Below, one piece after another: positions 33,814-52,793 of a stretch of 64,000 nt of DNA; within the stretch, counting starts at the first letter, position 1; every line of letters starts with the position of its first letter. Source of the stretch: a virus (lineage: Duplodnaviria; Caudoviricetes). Below the pieces are notes generated by a model that ran no database searches, had not been told where the DNA came from, and worked only from the letters and a program-made list of their open reading frames with translations. A program made the translations under genes and the position numbers. The DNA lies in the IMG/VR virus record IMGVR_UViG_3300028591_000003, positions 32,001 through 96,000 of that record; one strand, given 5' to 3'.

Positions 33814-34401
33814 TTATAGATTTATTAAACCTTTTTCTAACATTGCATGATGATTAGGGCATAGCCAAACTAAATTATTTTCATTATTTATTTCTTTAAT
33901 TAAAGTGTCTTCTGAAAATTCTAAAATTCCTTTTATATGATGTACTTCAAGTATTTCATCAAATTCATGATTTTTACAATAAGCACAAACTTTTTCTTTA
34001 TCAGATTTTTCTAATATTTTTCTTGCGTTTTTCCTAATTTCTCCACATTTAGTTGTGAGATATTTTTGTCCTGAAATATAATATCCTAAAGTTTTTTCTC
34101 CTATTGTTCCCCTTTTCTTGTTATAACATTCCAAACATATTTCAGAATGTACATCTTTAGGCTTTCCACATATAGGACAAATCTTATTAGGATTTTTTTC
34201 ATGTATATCTGTTCTGCCTTTGTTAAAGGTTTCAGATTCATTAATTATTCTTCTTCGAGGTAATTCAATTCCTAATTTTCTAGCAACTTTTTTAATATTA
34301 CTTCCAGAACAACCATATCTTCTACCTATTTCTTCATAACTGACTTTTTCTATATTTATAAGTCTTTCTAATTCTTCTTTTTCAGAATCCCATTTTGACA
34401 T
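33814..34401 (-). CDS. free-standing HNH endonuclease (HTH + Zn ribbon + HNH)
   Basis: EEIGRRYGCS HTH; CPIC..CLEC; CAYC..EVHH..NLVWLCPNHH. Confidence 0.9.
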   Translation of the reverse strand: MSKWDSEKEELERLINIEKVSYEEIGRRYGCSGSNIKKVARKLGIELPRRRIINESETFNKGRTDIHEKNPNKICPICGKPKDVHSEICLECYNKKRGTIGEKTLGYYISGQKYLTTKCGEIRKNARKILEKSDKEKVCAYCKNHEFDEILEVHHIKGILEFSEDTLIKEINNENNLVWLCPNHHAMLEKGLINL

Positions 34402-34435
34402 ATTTACAAACGAAGGGTTTTTAATCTTCGTACTA

Positions 34436-34466
34436 TAAATATACATTTTGAGTTCGAAAAATCAAA
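34436..34466 (-). promoter_or_regulatory. sigma-A-like promoter for HNH gene
   Basis: TTTG-N19-TATATTTA. Confidence 0.5.
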
Positions 34467-34519: not shown

Positions 34520-35094
34520 TACACCAGGTAGGATTCGAACCTACGACCTACTGCTTCATACTACTCTATGTTGCCATAGCCAAACAATGTCCTATTCTTA
34601 GACGATTAGATTTCCATCCTGCTAGGCATTTCACCACGCATTTTGTTTGTTGTAGTCTGGAATACATTATTACCATATTGAAATCCTTGCAAGTAACTAA
34701 GTCCGTTCATTCCCTTCTCATTTCCATCATTTCTGATTTCTCGGGTGTCTTCTTAGTAATTTCAATTTAGGTATCTCCTCTATACTCTCTACACGTTTAT
34801 AAGAAATAAGTGTCCACTCCTACAACACCTTTCGCTATATAAGCTAATGCTTCCATCATACAATACAATGGTATTTCTTAATTTAGCACGGTATTATCCT
34901 TACACATTATTGATTAGTGTTGTTAATCCTGTACTGATTTAACAGCTTAATGAGCGAATTGTTAACATCATTGCTCACACTCTTAGAAAAAGGACTTCCA
35001 CCGTTTTAGGGAGATTCTACATAGGACTTTCGTGCCCATGCATCCAATTTATTTATAGAAGGCAGTTGCTCTAATCCAGCTGAGCTACTGGTGC
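34520..35094 (-). tRNA. trnR: tRNA-Arg(TCT), exons 35057-35094 and 34520-34556
   Basis: Joined halves give ACTGC-CTTCT|AA-GCAGT. Confidence 0.9.
34557..35056 (-). mobile_element. ORF-less group I intron (500 nt) in tRNA-Arg
   Basis: U|...G| ends; P3 AUCUCC/GGAGAU; P4 ACGGU/ACCGU; homologous to the tRNA-Leu intron. Confidence 0.9.
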
Positions 35095-35098
35095 TTAA

Positions 35099-35163
35099 AA
35101 AGATACTTATTTTTATAACCATCCTATATTTATGTTTTATTAAAAATAGTTGTAAGTATCTTT
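35099..35163 (-). ncRNA. ACUUACAA-module RNA, short form
   Basis: AAAGATACTT-ACAAC...AAGTATCTTT. Confidence 0.7.
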
Positions 35164-36303: not shown

Positions 36304-36884
36304 TACGACAGGCGGGGATCGAACCCGCAAGATCTCTACAGACCTGAGGGATTTTCTTACCACTCTATGTTACCATAGCCAAACAAACACATTTTGTCGT
36401 TTAAAGCCGAGCAAGTTCTTAACTTCCATCTGATTTCACCCTTCAAAGAAGTTAATGCAGGCTTTTGTTTGTTGTGGTCTGGACTGTCTCTTTACCATAT
36501 TGAAATTCTTGCAAGTTCGTGACTTATCTCTATATATTGAGGGTTATCAAAAACCATTTTCTTTTGTCCTTATAAATTTCAACTTAGGTATCTCCCGTTC
36601 AGTCTCTACACGATTATAAGAAAAATATTCCTAAGAATATGGGTTGGGAATCGAACCCAACTTTACGCACCCGTAGGTGCACAGGATACCATTACCTGCC
36701 TACACTTCTTATTTTCGCTCGGTATAGTCCTACACATTATTTGTTAGTGTACAGTATTGGATTAAATTATGCACTGCTTTCACCTCAAGGATTTCCACCG
36801 AATTTAGGAGATTCTACTATGGGATTTCTCGCCATAGCACTCAATTTTCTAAGTCCCTTGTGTACACCATTCCACCACTGTCGC
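36304..36884 (-). tRNA. trnL: tRNA-Leu(TAA), exons 36851-36884 and 36304-36355
   Basis: Joined halves give AGGGA-CTT|AAAA-TCCCT with long variable arm. Confidence 0.9.
36356..36850 (-). mobile_element. ORF-less group I intron (495 nt) in tRNA-Leu anticodon
   Basis: U|...G|; P1 ACUU|A / UGAGU; R element AGAGACUG; S element AAGAGACAGUCC. Confidence 0.92.
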
Positions 36885-36886
36885 AT

Positions 36887-36968
36887 TTGAGATACTTAAA
36901 TTTATCTTTTACCAACACGTTGTTCCTATATTTATGTTTAATTAAATAAATATTTATAAGTATCTCAA
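36887..36968 (-). ncRNA. ACUUA(C/U)AA-module RNA, short form
   Basis: TTGAGATACTT-ATAAAT...AAGTATCTCAA. Confidence 0.7.
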
Positions 36969-37022
36969 GATGAACGTAAATAAATTTATTACTTAATTTT
37001 TAAAATCTATAGTTAAAAGATG

Positions 37023-37798: not shown

Positions 37799-38076
37799 AT
37801 TGTTTGTTGTTTGTTTAAAAATAAGAAGTGCGTTTCACAACGGACTTCTTTCTTGTAGATGAAAAGCCACTGCTTCTCCATAAATTTTAAAAATTTGAAT
37901 TAGTTCTATTATGATTTTCAATTACATTTTCAAAAAATTTTTCACTATCCTCACTTCCTTTAGAATCTAATCGCAGAACTTTCGACCTTAGAAGATATAC
38001 CAACGTACCCACCCAGGTTGAATAGGAAAACCACACTATTTTTAACGCGTATATTATTAGTGTGTAAAATAAATAG

Positions 38077-38209
38077 TCGGGGGACCAGGAATCGAACCTG
38101 GGACTTAGATTTATGAAATCCTTATTTTATTATGCTTTAAGATGTTGTAGGTATCAAAATGATACTAATGCTTTTATTTTCTTACATGTTACCACTACAC
38201 CATCCCCCA
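38077..38209 (-). ncRNA. tRNA scaffold with module in anticodon-arm position
   Basis: GGGGGA/TCCCCC acceptor, D-arm, TAAGA[..GTATC-ATTTT-GATAC-CTACAACA]TCTTA, T-arm CCAGG-TTCGATT-CCTGG. Confidence 0.78.
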
Positions 38210-38218
38210 TATAATAAA

Positions 38219-38350
38219 TCGGAAGGAGAGTTGGACTCGAACCAACAACACTTTGTTTAATAGACAAATACTCTAACCTCTTGAATTTATTAAATTATAA
38301 GTAACTCACGAAATTACTAGAATCAATTTTTATGTTGAGTTATCCGGCCA
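38219..38350 (-). ncRNA. tRNA(ATT)-like scaffold with module in D-loop
   Basis: ACTC..[AGTAATT-TCGTG-AGTTACT-TATAAT]..GGTTAGAGT; TTTGT-CTATTAA-ACAAA; T-arm; degenerate acceptor. Confidence 0.75.
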
Positions 38351-38496
38351 ATTTAATCCAAACTCTGTACAGAAACAGTTTCTTTCTTCATTATAGGTGC
38401 GTGTTATCCTAATTTTTACAGATTCAATGAAACTACCTACGTTTAGTTACATTATATCTGACCGCCAATTTCAATATCGCTGTTAGTTTGGATTAG

Positions 38497-38613
38497 TGGA
38501 GGGAGCAGGAATCGAACCTACATTATAGTCATTTTACGCATGATTAGAAATTTACTATGATTGAATGGTAAGTATCATATGATACTCGTCGTTACCAATA
38601 TTTCAATCCCTCC
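38497..38613 (-). ncRNA. tRNA scaffold with module in D-loop
   Basis: GGAGGGA/TCCCTCC-A; GAAAT[..GG..AGTATC-ATAT-GATACT-TACCAT..]ATTTC; T-arm. Confidence 0.75.
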
Positions 38614-38688
38614 AAATTAAAATTAGTAATCTATCTTCACAGACCAATTACTACTGTCAAACCTTAAAAAACATAACAAATTATGCAG

Positions 38689-38806
38689 CGGGGAGTACAA
38701 GAGTCGAACTTGCACTTCTGGAAAATCCCAGAAATTATGAAAGATGTTTTTGTAAGTAATAATTTACTACTCAACATAATCGGGCTTAACCATGCCCAAA
38801 CTCCCC
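38689..38806 (-). ncRNA. class-II tRNA scaffold with module replacing the anticodon loop
   Basis: GGGGAGT/ACTCCCC; ATTATG[..AGTAGTA-AAT-TATTACT-TACAAA..]CATAAT; long variable arm; T-arm. Confidence 0.8.
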
Positions 38807-38810
38807 TAAT

Positions 38811-38916
38811 TAAGATACTAGAAAATACATCTTGGAATCGAACCAAGTACACTCGGCGTTACGGCTGATGCTCTAACCAAATGAGCTAATGTGGTTATAT
38901 TATTGTAAGTATCTTA
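38811..38916 (-). ncRNA. ACUUACAA-module RNA enclosing a degenerate cloverleaf
   Basis: TAAGATACT-TACAATA..D-arm GCTCATTTGGTTAGAGC..T-arm CTTGG-TTCGATT-CCAAG..AGTATCTTA. Confidence 0.8.
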
Positions 38917-38974
38917 TTCGTCTCAAATAAAGAAATTATGATGCAGTTTTTCTTTTATCTGATGCACATCTAAA

Positions 38975-39367
38975 TCATTTTATACTATCATTTTTATTAA
39001 TAGACCAACTATCTACCCATTTGTCTAAAGCTTTTATACATTTATCTGGAAGTTGTTTTGCAGTTGGATTTGATTTAACATAATCAATAGTTCCACCAAC
39101 TCCATAAATAAGAAGTGCTTGATTTGTTGTAGGAATAAATATTTCTCCTAGACAGCAAACAAAGAAAATAGGTATTGTAAACCTAAGAATTTTAATTGAC
39201 AATTTTTGATACATTTTGTATTCAGTACGTTGGTCCTCAACTTCATTGCAATAGTTTACTAAATATACTATAAAAAATGCTATAGAAAGAATAATACTAG
39301 TAACAAGGAATATTGTTAAAACAGTACTGATTGAATCAAATCTTGTAATCCAATAAATTTCATTCAT
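38975..39367 (-). CDS. two-TM membrane protein
   Basis: YWITRFD, two hydrophobic helices, FIPTT. Confidence 0.78.
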   Translation of the reverse strand: MNEIYWITRFDSISTVLTIFLVTSIILSIAFFIVYLVNYCNEVEDQRTEYKMYQKLSIKILRFTIPIFFVCCLGEIFIPTTNQALLIYGVGGTIDYVKSNPTAKQLPDKCIKALDKWVDSWSINKNDSIK

Positions 39368-39386
39368 ATTATTAAATTTGTTTAAA

Positions 39387-39452
39387 AGGATACTAAAAAT
39401 GTCCCAATTAAAAGTTAGGTGCTTACTAGCAATTTAGTATTATAAGTATCCT
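39387..39452 (-). ncRNA. ACUUA(C/U)AA-module RNA, short form
   Basis: AGGATACT-TATAATA...AGTATCCT. Confidence 0.65.
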
Positions 39453-39483
39453 ATTTATTATGAAAGTAATTATTATAAAGTAA

Positions 39484-39604
39484 AAGTTACTTAGTAAAAA
39501 ACGTTGCTCTAAACCAAGCTGAGCTATCCCGAAACCCTCAGGAGTTGGATTTGAACCAACGACACACGGCTTACAAAGCTGATTCTTGATATTGTAAGTA
39601 ACTT
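39484..39604 (-). ncRNA. ACUUACAA-module RNA, circularly permuted tRNA (YrlA-like topology)
   Basis: AAGTTACTT-ACAATA..T-arm GTTGG-TTCAAAT-CCAAC, TCCTGA-loop-TCGGGA, D-arm GCTCAGCTTGGTTTAGAGC..AAGTAACTT. Confidence 0.82.
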
Positions 39605-39611
39605 AATTAGA

Positions 39612-39642
39612 AACTAGAGGAGGAATCGAACCTCCTCTAGTC
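39612..39642 (-). other. tRNA minihelix-like hairpin
   Basis: ACTAGAGGAGG-TTCGATT-CCTCCTCTAGT. Confidence 0.6.
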
Positions 39643-39661
39643 GTGATGCTTATTAAAAAAA

Positions 39662-41521
39662 TCAAAGGGTATTTGCTCTCACGAGTTCATACCTATTGCT
39701 TCTATAGAGACTCAACAGTGGAGTATAGACATCAAAGACATCCATATCCTTGAAGTTAGTCAGGAATTGCTCAATCATTGCTGGATTCGAAGGTATGTAC
39801 ATCATGTTGTCAATTCCACTAAATCGGTCTGCTCCAGCACTAGCACGAGAGCCAACAGCACCAGTAACATCCATAAGGATTACGTAAGGACGGAATCCAA
39901 AGAACCCCTCACACTGACGGAAGAAATCGTTCATACTCGCCTCTGGTGAATACATATTATTGAACATACCATCAGACATGATTGTCCATACAGGATAGTT
40001 ACGAAGAGCATCCTTAATCTCAGGATTTGCCTGACAAGCCTGGTTCAATCCCTTAGGAATACATGAAATATCAGTATTCCATCCCTGGAACTTACTTTGA
40101 AGGAAAGCAGAAATCCTCTTGTAATTATCCAGGAAACTAAGTTTAGGATCAACGAATGGTTGTGCCTTAGTCTTAGCTACCTTACTTCTTAAGATTGAGT
40201 TCTGAGATGTAGCCTGAGAATCAATGTAAGAATAGAAACGAGATGTTCCATCAAACATACCAACGAGATTACGAGCATCATCATCGGGATTCTTAACCAT
40301 ACATACTGCAGTAATAAAGGCAGCAAATCTGAATGGTGTACCACTCATAGAACCAGAACTGTCAATAATGGTCAGTGAATTATAAGGAAGATTAACCTTA
40401 TTCATAAAGGACTCAATCTTCAACTTATCAATTGTGCCACTAAGAATCTGGTTGTAGAGTTCAGTAAAGTTAGTAGCACCAATTGTTACCTTGGCCTCTT
40501 TCTTCACTTTCTCCAATTTAACCTTATCCTCCTCACTAGCCTGACCTTGACGAACCTTCTCTTCCAGAATACGTTGTTCTTGTTGCTTCTGCTCCTTATA
40601 AGTTTCCCATTCCTTGATCCAAGGCTGGAACTTAGCCCACTTAGATACTTCTGCAATAGCTACATTAGACTTTCCATCCAATCCAGCTGTCTCACAGTCT
40701 GCACCTACTACCTTGGAATAGAGGATTCTGTTCTTAACCCTGAACCTAGCCTGAGATGGGAGCTTGTCAAACCAGTCGATGAATTGCTGCTTGTCAAACT
40801 CATTTATCTTGCCAGTAGAGAAAAGTACAGATTCAAGAGAGCCATTGTACTGCTTTCGCCACTCACGATAACCCTTAAAATATTCCAGTTCCCATCCCAT
40901 CATCTTAGAGAGTTCAGTTAAGAAGTTCTTTTTCTCATTCATTACCTGAATAGTCTCAGGAAGAACTCTCTTATGACCTTGACGCTTACTGGTTCTTGGG
41001 ATAGTCAAGAACTTGGCAATCAATGTCTTATTGAACGGATTAGAACCGTTAATCACAGCATATGTATAGTCAAGAAGAGCCTTCACATACTCTTTATCTT
41101 GAAATGCATGATATATTTTCAGTACCTTCGAACCCTTAGTTTGAACTCGATTACGGAACAAAACATCAAAGCATGTATACTCATTAAAGAGTTGTGCATT
41201 TAAAAACTTGATGAATTGTTTCTTATCTTTTTTCCAAAGCCAGGTTGTGATAGTATAGAAAGCCTCACGATTGGCATTACCACCACTGTCAACCTTCTTC
41301 TTTTTAAAGATGTTGTGCTGACGATTAGTAATGTCTCCAATAGAGAACAGGATTGAGAAGAAAAGTTCTCTCTTTTCTTTAGAGTTCTTTACTTCAAGCC
41401 ATGCATCATTCAGAAGAACCTCTGAAATAACTGCATCAGTTGATGCCTGCTGAAGTTGCAGACATCTGCGAAGTCCGTAAAACGGATTGTTACTTTTTTT
41501 ATTAAGTTCTACTTGTACCAT
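39662..41521 (-). CDS. DUF2828/TROVE(Ro60)-like helical domain plus vWA domain protein
   Basis: MIDAS IIDSSGSM...NTD...MSDGMF; N-terminal pattern AW...LF...DI...GG...RE.F, AKF...PR, KLPSQA recognised by eye as DUF2828-like. Confidence 0.75.
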   Translation of the reverse strand: MVQVELNKKSNNPFYGLRRCLQLQQASTDAVISEVLLNDAWLEVKNSKEKRELFFSILFSIGDITNRQHNIFKKKKVDSGGNANREAFYTITTWLWKKDKKQFIKFLNAQLFNEYTCFDVLFRNRVQTKGSKVLKIYHAFQDKEYVKALLDYTYAVINGSNPFNKTLIAKFLTIPRTSKRQGHKRVLPETIQVMNEKKNFLTELSKMMGWELEYFKGYREWRKQYNGSLESVLFSTGKINEFDKQQFIDWFDKLPSQARFRVKNRILYSKVVGADCETAGLDGKSNVAIAEVSKWAKFQPWIKEWETYKEQKQQEQRILEEKVRQGQASEEDKVKLEKVKKEAKVTIGATNFTELYNQILSGTIDKLKIESFMNKVNLPYNSLTIIDSSGSMSGTPFRFAAFITAVCMVKNPDDDARNLVGMFDGTSRFYSYIDSQATSQNSILRSKVAKTKAQPFVDPKLSFLDNYKRISAFLQSKFQGWNTDISCIPKGLNQACQANPEIKDALRNYPVWTIMSDGMFNNMYSPEASMNDFFRQCEGFFGFRPYVILMDVTGAVGSRASAGADRFSGIDNMMYIPSNPAMIEQFLTNFKDMDVFDVYTPLLSLYRSNRYELVRANTL

Positions 41522-52700: not shown

Positions 52701-52776
52701 TGGGGCGTAGTCGAGCGGCTTCAGACTGGAGACTCTAAATCTCTGCATTACGCGGGTTCGAATCCTGCCACCCCAA
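52701..52776 (+). tRNA. amber suppressor tRNA(CTA), probably Gln-accepting
   Basis: GGAGA-CTCTAAA-TCTCT; U1-A72, G2-C71, G3-C70 as in tRNA-Gln. Confidence 0.92.
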
Positions 52777-52793
52777 CTAGACGTAAATGAATT

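What the first reader, a model, noticed from the sequence alone, without database searches (positions are those of the whole stretch)
36632..36711. tRNA-shaped domain nested inside the tRNA-Leu group I intron
Seen: D-arm CAGG-UAAUGGUAU-CCUG, arm GCACC-UACG-GGUGC (tetraloop, no anticodon) and T-arm UUGGG-UUCGAUU-CCCAA. It occupies a peripheral position where the sister Arg intron has unrelated sequence. Inference: the excised intron carries a tRNA mimic, or the domain recruits a tRNA-binding splicing helper.
Basis: partly seen in the sequence, partly recalled or inferred. Interest (0 to 1): 0.75.

Follow-up and report, generated by a model that had tools for sequence, protein, structure and literature searches.

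The report
Anticodon-less tRNA look-alike inside phage intron
A rumen phage's leucine-tRNA gene is split by a self-splicing intron, and one exchangeable side arm of that intron holds a tRNA-shaped fold that cannot read codons; it is most likely a tRNA-derived passenger or structural module, and no function has been shown.

Summary
On the minus strand, a 495-nt group I intron (36850-36356) splits tRNA-Leu(UAA) at the classical U34/A35 site. The tip of its helix P6 carries three hairpins in tRNA order and with tRNA dimensions:
- a D-like arm with a GG loop;
- a 5-bp anticodon-like stem capped by UACG;
- a canonical T arm.

This is far beyond chance: a D-AC-T descriptor finds 8 sites in the 176-kb genome (6 of them tRNAs) and none in 20 shuffles. 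It is still not a tRNA. Rfam and ARAGORN do not call it, it has no anticodon loop, and nearest-neighbour folding prefers a five-way junction (-32.1 kcal/mol) over a true cloverleaf (-27.1).

P6 is the swappable site of this intron family. About 45 phage homologues and 120 bacterial ones carry unrelated inserts there. Only one other phage homologue (L064) has a T arm in P6, and three have one in the 3' extension.

Sheep-rumen RNA libraries hold exact contigs that span the domain, at about 300 times the depth of the flank. Variant contigs keep the stems.

Best reading (0.5): a tRNA-derived, non-decoding cassette that stays in the excised intron. Cargo, decoy or helper-recruiting roles remain open.

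This scan has noted similar tRNA-like inserts in phage introns on other DNA. I found no paper describing them.

The parts
36851..36884 (-). 5' exon of tRNA-Leu(UAA): acceptor 5' strand, D arm, anticodon stem 5' strand and C32-U33-U34. It ends ...GGGACUU, with U-1 at 36851.
   Evidence: Sequence. The spliced exons are called tRNA-Leu(taa) by ARAGORN.
36356..36850 (-). Group I intron, 495 nt, IC3-like tRNA type. Site is CUU/a...g/AAAA, with omegaG at 36356. P1 pairs exon CUU plus intron AG with UUGAG (36844-36840), placing a U.G wobble at the splice site.
   Evidence: The core pattern is shared with more than 120 mostly cyanobacterial genomes; of 5 such loci scanned, 4 score 79-89 bits for Rfam Intron_gpI. 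There is no RF00028 hit on the phage copy itself.
36304..36355 (-). 3' exon of tRNA-Leu(UAA): A35-A38, anticodon stem 3' strand, long variable arm, T arm, acceptor 3' strand and discriminator A. No CCA is encoded.
36705..36712 (-). P6 closing helix, 5' strand (AUAAGAAG). It follows the conserved J4/6 sequence AGCGAAAAU directly.
   Evidence: Same position in all homologues. 65% of 43 distinct inserts close with 5 or more pairs, against 19% for mismatched partners. Pairing probability is 0.9-0.99 for the five A-U/G-C pairs at 36710-36706 and 0.54 for the G.U pair at 36705; 36712-36711 pair in the MFE.
36616..36623 (-). P6 closing helix, 3' strand (UUUCUUAU). It directly precedes J6/7 (AAUC) and P7 (GUGUAGAGACU, 36611-36601).
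36681..36699 (-). D-like arm: a 4-bp stem CAGG/CCUG plus G.U, and a 9-nt loop UAAUGGUAU with GG at the G18/G19-like position.
36667..36680 (-). Anticodon-stem-like arm: GCACC/GGUGC capped by the UACG tetraloop (36675-36672). It has no U33 and no anticodon.
   Evidence: A variant contig has loop UCAU and C36677->U, which keeps a G.U pair.
36643..36661 (-). T-like arm: UUGGG / UUCGAUU / CCCAA plus an outer G-C pair. G53-C61 and U54...A58 equivalents are intact. A 5-nt variable-like linker GUAAA lies at 36666-36662.
   Evidence: It matches the T arm of the tmRNA/tRNA clan models only locally.
36625..36640 (-). Fourth hairpin AUAUUC / UUAG / GAAUAU, between the T arm and the P6 3' strand. Its 5' half can pair instead with 36711-36703 to make an acceptor-like stem and a true cloverleaf.
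   Evidence: The five-way junction scores -32.1 kcal/mol and the cloverleaf -27.1.
34520..35094 (-). Sister gene: tRNA-Arg(UCU) split after U36 by a 500-nt paralogous intron (35056-34557), whose P6 holds an unrelated 85-nt insert.

Best explanation
The domain is a tRNA-derived (or tRNA-mimicking), non-decoding cassette of 81 nt (36704-36624). It sits at the tip of helix P6 of an IC3-type group I intron in the phage's tRNA-Leu(UAA) gene.

Shown:
- The intron is homologous to the classical cyanobacterial tRNA-Leu intron and sits at the same splice site.
- P6 is the place where this intron family exchanges inserts.
- The cassette has D-like, anticodon-stem-like and T-like arms with tRNA spacing, and all the nucleotides needed for a D-loop/T-loop elbow. 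Its anticodon loop is replaced by a tetraloop.
- RNA containing the intron with the cassette occurs in rumen RNA libraries, at far higher contig depth than the flank.

Inferred:
- The cassette folds on its own into a compact elbow-type module.
- It stays part of the excised intron rather than being released.
- It is tolerated because P6 points away from the catalytic core.
- At most it acts as a rigid, stable cap of the P4-P6 domain. It is not needed for catalysis.
For: 1. Intron identity and site. In-silico splicing gives tRNA-Leu(taa). The 25-nt P7/P3' pattern hits more than 120 bacterial genomes, mostly cyanobacteria. Of 5 such loci scanned, 4 score 79-89 bits for RF00028, and in L094 the hit covers the pattern site. 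The alignment puts the cassette where the Anabaena intron has its P6 extension.
2. P6 is a swap site. The 43 distinct inserts are 29-276 nt long and unrelated, each between a covarying closing helix. Contigs of close relatives join 36619/22 to 36706/09 through 26-35 other letters. In bacteria P6 is 16-141 nt with no T arm.
3. tRNA-likeness beyond chance. The descriptor gives 8 hits against 0 in 20 shuffles. Arm pairing probabilities exceed 0.9.
4. Not a working tRNA: 4-nt loop, no Rfam or ARAGORN call.
5. The module stays within the intron RNA. Exact RNA contigs 36594-36735 and 36590-36815 cross both borders. Contig depth along the intron is even, 2.4-3.7 thousand in X2, against about 12 for the flank.
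6. Two variant contigs change the tetraloop, convert two G-C pairs to G.U, or fall outside the stems. No arm is broken.
7. T-arm hairpins recur in peripheral inserts of the family: P6 of L064, and the 3' extensions of L008, L032 and L034. Shuffles give about 0. This fits repeated capture or reuse of tRNA parts as building blocks.
Against: - It is a single case. No second genome in IMG/VR or the JGI metagenomes has this cassette, so there is no covariation test.
- No donor tRNA was found among 287 phage tRNAs or in the genome itself, so tRNA ancestry is inferred from form only.
- Intact elbow nucleotides and a stable cap on the anticodon-like stem look maintained rather than decaying. That would also fit a real function.
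- Related phages have free-standing anticodon-less tRNA-like genes (L018, L024), which favours a small-RNA cargo reading.
- Contigs cannot show RNA ends, so release of the module is not excluded.
- The two RNA libraries with exact contigs come from one sample.
Confidence: 0.5

Rival explanations
1. Intron-borne cargo. The cassette is a small tRNA-like RNA gene nested in P6. After splicing, RNase P and a 3' nuclease cut it out of the intron through the alternative cloverleaf (acceptor-like stem 36711-36703 / 36641-36632). The released anticodon-less tRNA look-alike then acts as a decoy or sponge for host factors that read the tRNA elbow or acceptor arm.
For: - A well-formed cloverleaf exists only 5 kcal/mol above the predicted ground state.
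- The proximal and distal UUCUUA copies give the P6 5' strand two possible partners.
- Related phages carry free-standing tRNA-like genes with a 3-nt cap in place of the anticodon loop: L018:5903-5953 and L024:3543-3591.
- The variant C36641->U is compatible with acceptor-like pairing.
- Earlier notes from this scan report tRNA-like inserts in P6 loops of other phage introns. Those are leads, not evidence.
Against: - The family-wide rule that the P6 3' strand abuts J6/7 favours the five-way junction.
- High-depth RNA contigs run uncut across both borders.
- There is no encoded CCA. In the GUGUAGG/CCCAUAU pairing no nucleotides separate the acceptor-like and D-like stems.
- The cassette is absent from all sampled homologues.
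Confidence: 0.2
2. Helper recruitment. The elbow-bearing module binds a host tRNA-binding protein that chaperones folding or stabilises the active intron. Candidates are LeuRS (which in E. coli recognises tRNA-Leu without reading the anticodon), TruB, TrmA and RNase P.
For: - The T loop, the G53-C61 equivalent and the GG of the D-like loop are all intact.
- Synthetase-assisted group I splicing is established for fungal mitochondrial TyrRS (PMC4275181, found) and, from my own knowledge, for yeast mitochondrial LeuRS.
- The intron is long (495 nt) with large P5, P6, P8 and P9 extensions, so folding help is plausible.
Against: - Relatives with the same core manage with unrelated inserts, some as short as 26-35 nt.
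- The paralogous Arg intron in the same phage lacks the module.
- The phage encodes no matching protein.
- No binding data exist.
Confidence: 0.15
3. Plain relic. A fragment of a tRNA gene was pasted into P6 by illegitimate recombination in a tRNA-rich region. It has no role and is on its way to decay.
For: - The intron lies in an array of more than 20 tRNA genes.
- P6 tolerates any insert.
- The domain occurs in one genome only.
Against: - No similar tRNA exists in this genome or in 287 tRNAs of related phages: best alignment score 17, against a median of 43 between true tRNAs. So it is not recent.
- All three stems are nevertheless perfect, and the loop is a stable cap rather than a decayed anticodon loop.
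- Variants keep the pairing.
Confidence: 0.12
4. Chance resemblance. Three unrelated hairpins happen to look like tRNA arms.
For: The folding energy is not exceptional (z = -1.5). No covariance model calls it.
Against: The descriptor gives 0 hits in 20 shuffles of 176 kb on both strands. The exact 11-nt T-loop core GGTTCGATTCC, flanked by perfect stems, sits in a genome of 29% G+C.
Confidence: 0.03

Closest known systems
Cyanobacterial/plastid tRNA-Leu(UAA) group I intron with its variable P6b stem-loop (PMC4476775; Williams 2020, bioRxiv 10.1101/2020.01.27.920355, class 'Leu.3Ug')
   Same: Same host gene and same splice site (CUU/a...g/AAAA). P1-P4 and the P7/P3'/P8 core are homologous. P6 is the length-variable site in both.
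   Different: The phage intron is about twice as long and is missed by RF00028. Its P6 holds a tRNA-shaped module instead of simple repeats or hairpins. None of 120 bacterial homologues has a T arm there.
IC3 introns after the anticodon in bacterial tRNA genes (Azoarcus tRNA-Ile, Agrobacterium tRNA-Arg; from my own knowledge, Reinhold-Hurek and Shub 1992)
   Same: The sister intron in tRNA-Arg(UCU) sits after U36, like these, and shares the GUGUAGAGA P7 motif.
   Different: Those introns are minimal (about 200 nt), with a short P6 and no tRNA-like insert.
Synthetase-dependent group I introns (Neurospora CYT-18 TyrRS, PMC4275181; yeast mitochondrial LeuRS, from my own knowledge)
   Same: Both link a group I intron to tRNA-like recognition. 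This is the model for the 'helper' reading.
   Different: In those cases the protein reads the intron core as a tRNA-like surface. Here a literal D/anticodon-stem/T module sits in a peripheral loop, and no protein partner is known.
Non-decoding tRNA mimics: YrlA Y-RNA-like (RF02553), the tmRNA tRNA-like domain, and viral tRNA-like structures (PMC5723415)
   Same: T arm plus D-like arm with elbow nucleotides, and no functional anticodon loop.
   Different: Those are free RNAs or RNA ends with an accessible acceptor end. This one is internal to a ribozyme helix. There is no YrlA hit on it and no TROVE protein in the genome.
Phage group I introns that carry a passenger (homing endonuclease ORF) in a peripheral loop (e.g. 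PMC3428280, PMC11878797)
   Same: A peripheral loop serves as a permissive site for a passenger.
   Different: The passenger here is an 81-nt structured RNA, not an ORF. The nearest HNH gene is free-standing, beside the sister tRNA-Arg gene at 33814-34446.
Free-standing anticodon-less tRNA-like genes in related rumen phages
   Same: D arm with GG, a 5-bp stem capped by a 3-4-nt loop, a short linker and a canonical T arm.
   Different: Those have their own acceptor stem and lie between genes or in tRNA arrays. They share no sequence beyond the T loop.

Membership tests
Group I intron (IC3-like, tRNA anticodon-loop type) | Inserted in the anticodon loop with U at -1 and G at the last intron position; removal restores a normal tRNA | tested here: met
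   Removing 36850-36356 gives a tRNA that ARAGORN calls tRNA-Leu(taa). Removing 35056-34557 gives tRNA-Arg(tct). The site matches class Leu.3Ug of Williams 2020.
Group I intron (IC3-like, tRNA anticodon-loop type) | P1 helix pairing the 5' exon end with an internal guide, with a U.G wobble at the splice site | tested here: met
   Read from the sequence: exon CUU plus intron AG pairs with UUGAG at 36844-36840, and U36851 pairs with G36842. The geometry matches the Rfam-aligned Anabaena copy.
Group I intron (IC3-like, tRNA anticodon-loop type) | Conserved catalytic core (P3, P4, P6, P7, P8 and junctions) homologous to recognised group I introns | tested here: met
   The 25-nt P7/P3' pattern hits more than 120 genomes. 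Four of five such loci scanned score 79-89 bits for RF00028, and in L094 the hit covers the pattern site. The alignment shows shared P1-P4, J4/6 and P7-P8.
Group I intron (IC3-like, tRNA anticodon-loop type) | Detection by the Rfam RF00028 covariance model (an operational test, not a biological definition) | tested here: not met
   No hit even at E <= 10. Probably the large P5, P6, P8 and P9 insertions are the cause.
Group I intron (IC3-like, tRNA anticodon-loop type) | Self-splicing and exon ligation | tested here: inconclusive
   RNA libraries hold the intron at high depth and the exon bins at very low depth. Back-joints from the 3' end to the 5' end appear in RNA runs. No exon-exon joint was listed, and contigs cannot show ends.
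tRNA (RF00005) | Seven-nucleotide anticodon loop with U33 and an anticodon | tested here: not met
   The loop is UACG, 4 nt.
tRNA (RF00005) | Seven-bp acceptor stem with free ends and a discriminator (plus or minus CCA) | tested here: not met
   The module is closed by intron helix P6. An acceptor-like pairing exists only as a less stable alternative (-27.1 against -32.1 kcal/mol). There is no CCA.
tRNA (RF00005) | T arm with a G53-C61 pair and the UUCRANY loop; D loop with GG | tested here: met
   UUGGG / UUCGAUU / CCCAA, and a D-like loop UAAUGGUAU.
tRNA (RF00005) | Score at or above the model's gathering threshold (29 bits), or a call by ARAGORN | tested here: not met
   Only a local T-arm match of 8.5-12 bits to the tmRNA model of the clan. 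No ARAGORN gene.
YrlA / Y RNA-like (RF02553) | tRNA-like module joined to a Ro60-binding helix, with a Ro60 (TROVE) protein in the genome | tested here: not met
   No YrlA match on the domain. No TROVE match in the 176-kb genome. The neighbouring 619-aa ORF has no Pfam hit.

The most novel reading that the evidence does not exclude
Phage group I introns act as carriers for anticodon-less tRNA mimics. Splicing of the tRNA-Leu precursor yields an essential tRNA. It also yields a stable (possibly circular) intron RNA, or a released RNA of about 80 nt. The tRNA elbow on that RNA titrates or recruits host tRNA-binding factors, such as defence nucleases, RNase P, modification enzymes or LeuRS.
Probability: 0.2. 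Interest if true: 0.8.

Novelty: new variant of a known kind. Interest (0 to 1): 0.5.

Why it matters
[quoted passage not shown] A natural intron that holds a complete tRNA-style elbow module would be informative in either of two ways:
- If the module is structural, it shows that tRNA parts are reused as folding blocks inside ribozymes. That would be a natural counterpart of engineered tRNA scaffolds.
- If it is functional, phages would be delivering tRNA mimics through splicing.

T-arm hairpins recur in other inserts of the same intron family, and earlier notes from this scan report similar inserts on other phages. This suggests a wider, undescribed habit of large gut and rumen phages rather than a one-off.

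There is also a practical point. Rfam's group I model and ARAGORN both miss this intron family, so two tRNAs (Leu-UAA and Arg-UCU) go unannotated. From general knowledge of A+T-rich codon usage, TTA and AGA should be favoured codons in this 29% G+C genome; I did not count codons.

Tried and rejected
- BLAST of the 611-nt locus against 50,697 phage records found no match.
- Exact or degenerate patterns for the cassette gave no hit in IMG/VR. An intron-context pattern requiring a T loop in P6 found one other contig in IMG/VR and the same contig in the JGI metagenomes.
- No paralogue of the domain exists in the genome beyond the 13-nt T-loop core. No donor was found among 287 tRNAs of related phages.
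- Rfam on the domain alone returned only a local T-arm match and a meaningless 10.6-bit sRNA match.
- Rfam on the 3' half of the intron alone gave no group I hit.
- The GUGUAGG/CCCAUAU pairing as acceptor stem scores -20.4 kcal/mol with about zero ensemble probability. I kept it only as a minor alternative.
- The T loop (CGAUU) is complementary to J6/7-P7 (AAUCG). I judged this to be chance, because tRNA-likeness fixes one sequence and the intron family fixes the other.
- RNA contig depth over the exons is very low. Mature tRNAs and short exons are poorly captured and some contigs are filtered, so I do not use this as evidence.
- No exon-exon joint and no exact full-length circle joint of this intron were among the listed joints.
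- Five literature searches found no description of a tRNA-like module in a group I intron helix.
- No 3D RNA prediction tool was available, so the elbow is inferred from sequence.

Full report
**Context.** The window is bases 32001-96000 of a 176,443-bp IMG/VR virus record with direct terminal repeats and 29% G+C. DNA and RNA runs that hold the locus come from sheep, cattle and goat gut samples. Everything described here is on the minus strand, inside a long array of tRNA genes.

**The host gene and the intron.** From 36884 the sequence starts as a tRNA: acceptor strand, D arm, anticodon stem, then C-U-U. It then runs into about 500 nt of other sequence. The matching anticodon-stem strand, a long variable arm, a T arm and the complementary acceptor strand follow at 36355-36304.
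- Removing 36850-36356 in a script gives an RNA that ARAGORN calls tRNA-Leu(taa). The same operation on the paralogue found (removing 35056-34557) gives tRNA-Arg(tct).
- The Leu site is CUU/a...g/AAAA, with U at -1 and G at the last intron position. This is the classical cyanobacterial site, class 'Leu.3Ug' of Williams 2020.
- P1 can be read directly. Exon CUU plus intron AG pairs with UUGAG, which puts a U.G wobble at the splice site.

**Why Rfam misses it, and why it is still a group I intron.** Rfam's Intron_gpI model does not report the phage intron, even at E <= 10 or on the 3' half alone. Identity therefore rests on homology.
- A 25-nt P7/P3' pattern taken from the window hits more than 120 bacterial genomes, nearly all cyanobacteria.
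- Of five of those loci scanned, four score 79-89 bits for RF00028. In the Anabaena locus L094 the hit covers the pattern site.
- A MAFFT alignment shows shared P1-P2-P3-J3/4-P4, the J4/6 motif, and P7-P3'-P8.
- The phage family has large extra inserts in P5, P6, P8 and the 3' region. These probably explain the Rfam miss.

**Where the domain sits.** In 43 distinct homologous inserts from 58 IMG/VR loci, the conserved motif ACCGNGCNAAAWU is followed by one strand of a helix. The other strand of that helix lies directly before AUAAWY-GUGUAGAGA.
- The two strands covary. 65% close with five or more consecutive pairs, against 19% for mismatched partners.
- This is P6 by comparison with the Rfam-annotated Anabaena copy.
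- What lies between the strands is unrelated from intron to intron, 29-276 nt long.
- In the Leu intron, P6 is 36712-36705 / 36623-36616 and the insert is 36704-36624.
- Contigs of close relatives in four sequencing runs keep the flanks but replace 36705-36623 with 26-35 other letters. The cassette is therefore exchanged as a unit and is not needed by the ribozyme.

**The domain itself.** The three arms are exactly as described:

| Arm | Coordinates | Sequence |
|---|---|---|
| D-like | 36699-36681 | CAGG / UAAUGGUAU / CCUG, plus a G.U pair |
| Anticodon-stem-like | 36680-36667 | GCACC / UACG / GGUGC |
| Linker | 36666-36662 | GUAAA |
| T-like | 36661-36643 | UUGGG / UUCGAUU / CCCAA, plus a sixth G-C pair |

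- Stem lengths, the 0-1-nt D/anticodon spacing, the 5-nt linker, the position of GG in the D-like loop and the T-loop consensus are all those of a class I tRNA.
- Pairing probabilities exceed 0.9 for every arm.
- A strict descriptor of these features finds eight places in the whole genome: six annotated tRNAs, one odd tRNA-like gene at 38230-38286, and this domain. It finds none in 20 shuffled genomes. Chance is excluded.

**In what respects it is not a tRNA.**
- The loop has four nucleotides, so there is no anticodon.
- ARAGORN and the Rfam tRNA model do not call it. Only the T arm matches locally.
- The junction differs from a tRNA. In the predicted ground state (-32.1 kcal/mol), P6 closes a five-way junction that also holds a fourth hairpin at 36640-36625.
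- A true cloverleaf, using 36711-36703 with 36641-36632 as an acceptor-like stem, is 5 kcal/mol less stable (-27.1). The pairing GUGUAGG/CCCAUAU is worse still (-20.4).
- The family rule that the P6 3' strand abuts J6/7 also favours the five-way form.
- Tertiary D-loop/T-loop contacts are not counted in these energies, so the choice between the forms needs probing.

**Origin.** No other part of the genome resembles the domain beyond the 13-nt T-loop core. None of 287 tRNAs from the genome and related phage loci is close: the best global score is 17, against a median best of 43 among real tRNAs. If the module descends from a tRNA, the event is not recent. Even so, all stems are perfect.

**Relatives and recurrence.**
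- Searches for this cassette in IMG/VR and the JGI metagenomes found nothing.
- A pattern asking for any T loop in P6 of this intron family found one other case, L064, and only that contig again in the JGI metagenomes. L064 is an intron in a tRNA-Ser(UGA) gene. Its T arm stacks directly on the P6 3' strand and is preceded by a hairpin with a GG loop, with no anticodon-like stem.
- Perfect T-arm hairpins also occur in the 3' extensions of L008, L032 and L034. In total there are 2 in 50 distinct 5' halves and 3 in 20 distinct 3' halves, where shuffles give about zero.
- None of 120 bacterial homologues has one in P6.
- Related phages also hold free-standing tRNA-like genes whose anticodon stem is capped by a 3-nt loop: L018:5903-5953 and L024:3543-3591.
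- Earlier notes from this scan report tRNA-like inserts in intron loops of other phages. They agree with what I saw, but they are unchecked leads.
- Five literature searches found no description of such a module. P6b variability in Nostoc introns is known (PMC4476775).

**RNA evidence (contigs only).**
- Two RNA libraries of one sheep-rumen sample hold exact contigs 36594-36735 (depth 3683) and 36590-36815 (depth 396). They also hold 36488-36604 and 36711-36815 at similar depth.
- Exact contigs of the upstream flank (36912-37000) have depth 11.7 and 2.6 in the same libraries. A DNA run is flat at 16-46.
- The intron with its cassette is therefore present as RNA well above any DNA background, and molecules run uncut across both borders of the domain.
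- A bovine RNA library holds two variant contigs.
  - One changes C36641 to U.
  - The other changes the tetraloop to UCAU, C36677 to U (G.U kept) and C36643 to U (G.U kept).
  - No arm is disrupted, and refolding gives the same structure. This is weak support for maintenance of the fold.
- Contigs cannot show ends, so release of a small RNA is not excluded.

**Reading.**
- The data fit best (0.5) a tRNA-derived, non-decoding cassette that occupies the exchangeable P6 tip. It would fold on its own, stay in the excised intron, and act at most as a stable structural cap.
- A cargo or decoy role (0.2) gains from the alternative cloverleaf and the free-standing look-alikes.
- Recruitment of a host tRNA-binding helper (0.15) gains from the intact elbow and from the precedent of synthetase-assisted introns. 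It is weakened by the sister intron and many relatives that lack the module, and by the absence of any matching phage protein.
- A functionless relic (0.12) and chance (0.03) are less likely.

**Verdict.** This is a new variant of a known kind: a group I tRNA intron with an unusual peripheral module. Interest is moderate (0.5). The structure is striking and seems to belong to a wider, undescribed pattern in large gut and rumen phages. This particular cassette, however, is known from one genome plus near-identical RNA variants, and no function has been shown.

Noticed in passing
window 34520-35094 (-): An unannotated tRNA-Arg(UCU) is split after U36 by a 500-nt paralogue of the Leu intron (35056-34557). 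ARAGORN and Rfam miss both split genes, so Leu(UAA) and Arg(UCU) are absent from automatic tRNA lists.
   Followed up: yes
window 33814-34446 (-): A 210-aa ORF with a weak HNH endonuclease match (E = 2.5e-4) lies just downstream of the intron-bearing tRNA-Arg gene. It may be a free-standing homing nuclease associated with the introns.
   Followed up: partly
window 37880-39680 (-): A dense run of odd tRNA-like genes with long inserts. It includes a Y-RNA-like (YrlA) match at 39472-39590 (39 bits, below the cut-off of 69) and weak tRNA matches at 38823-38895 and 38230-38287. The genome has no TROVE (Ro60) match, and the adjacent 619-aa ORF (39662-41521) has no Pfam hit.
   Followed up: partly
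window 52701-52777 (+), and ORFs window-wide: A tRNA with anticodon CUA is present. Reading TAG as sense doubles the ORFs of 300 aa or more from 5 to 10, some with 16-17 in-frame TAGs. TAG recoding in part of the genome is likely.
   Followed up: partly
window 36356 / 36842-36850 (RNA runs X2, X3, X5): Contigs listed from RNA libraries join the intron's 3' end (36351-36370) back to its 5' region (36836-36848), with 8-22 other letters between. This would fit circular intron RNAs of related introns. It could also be an assembly artefact of repeated cores.
   Followed up: no
L064:3855-3959 (-); L008:141-157; L032:4417-4433; L034:11031-11047: Other members of the intron family carry perfect T-arm hairpins in peripheral inserts: P6 of a tRNA-Ser(UGA) intron, and the 3' extensions of three others. 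Several sit next to a hairpin with GG in its loop. Shuffles give about zero.
   Followed up: partly
L018:5903-5953 (-); L024:3543-3591 (-): Free-standing tRNA-like genes in related rumen phages. They have their own acceptor stem, a D arm and a T arm, but a 3-nt cap (AUU, CAA) in place of the anticodon loop.
   Followed up: partly
window 36925-36940 and 35125-35140 (-): Both intron-bearing tRNA genes are preceded by the same AAACAUAAAUAUAGGA motif, and by an AAGUAUCU motif just before the tRNA 5' end. These may be a shared promoter or leader element, or a trace of a segmental duplication.
   Followed up: no
window 36356-36850 (-), and 58 IMG/VR loci (L006-L063): This whole phage intron family is invisible to Rfam RF00028, although its cyanobacterial homologues score about 80-89 bits. 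Intron-split tRNAs in large gut and rumen phages are therefore probably undercounted.
   Followed up: partly
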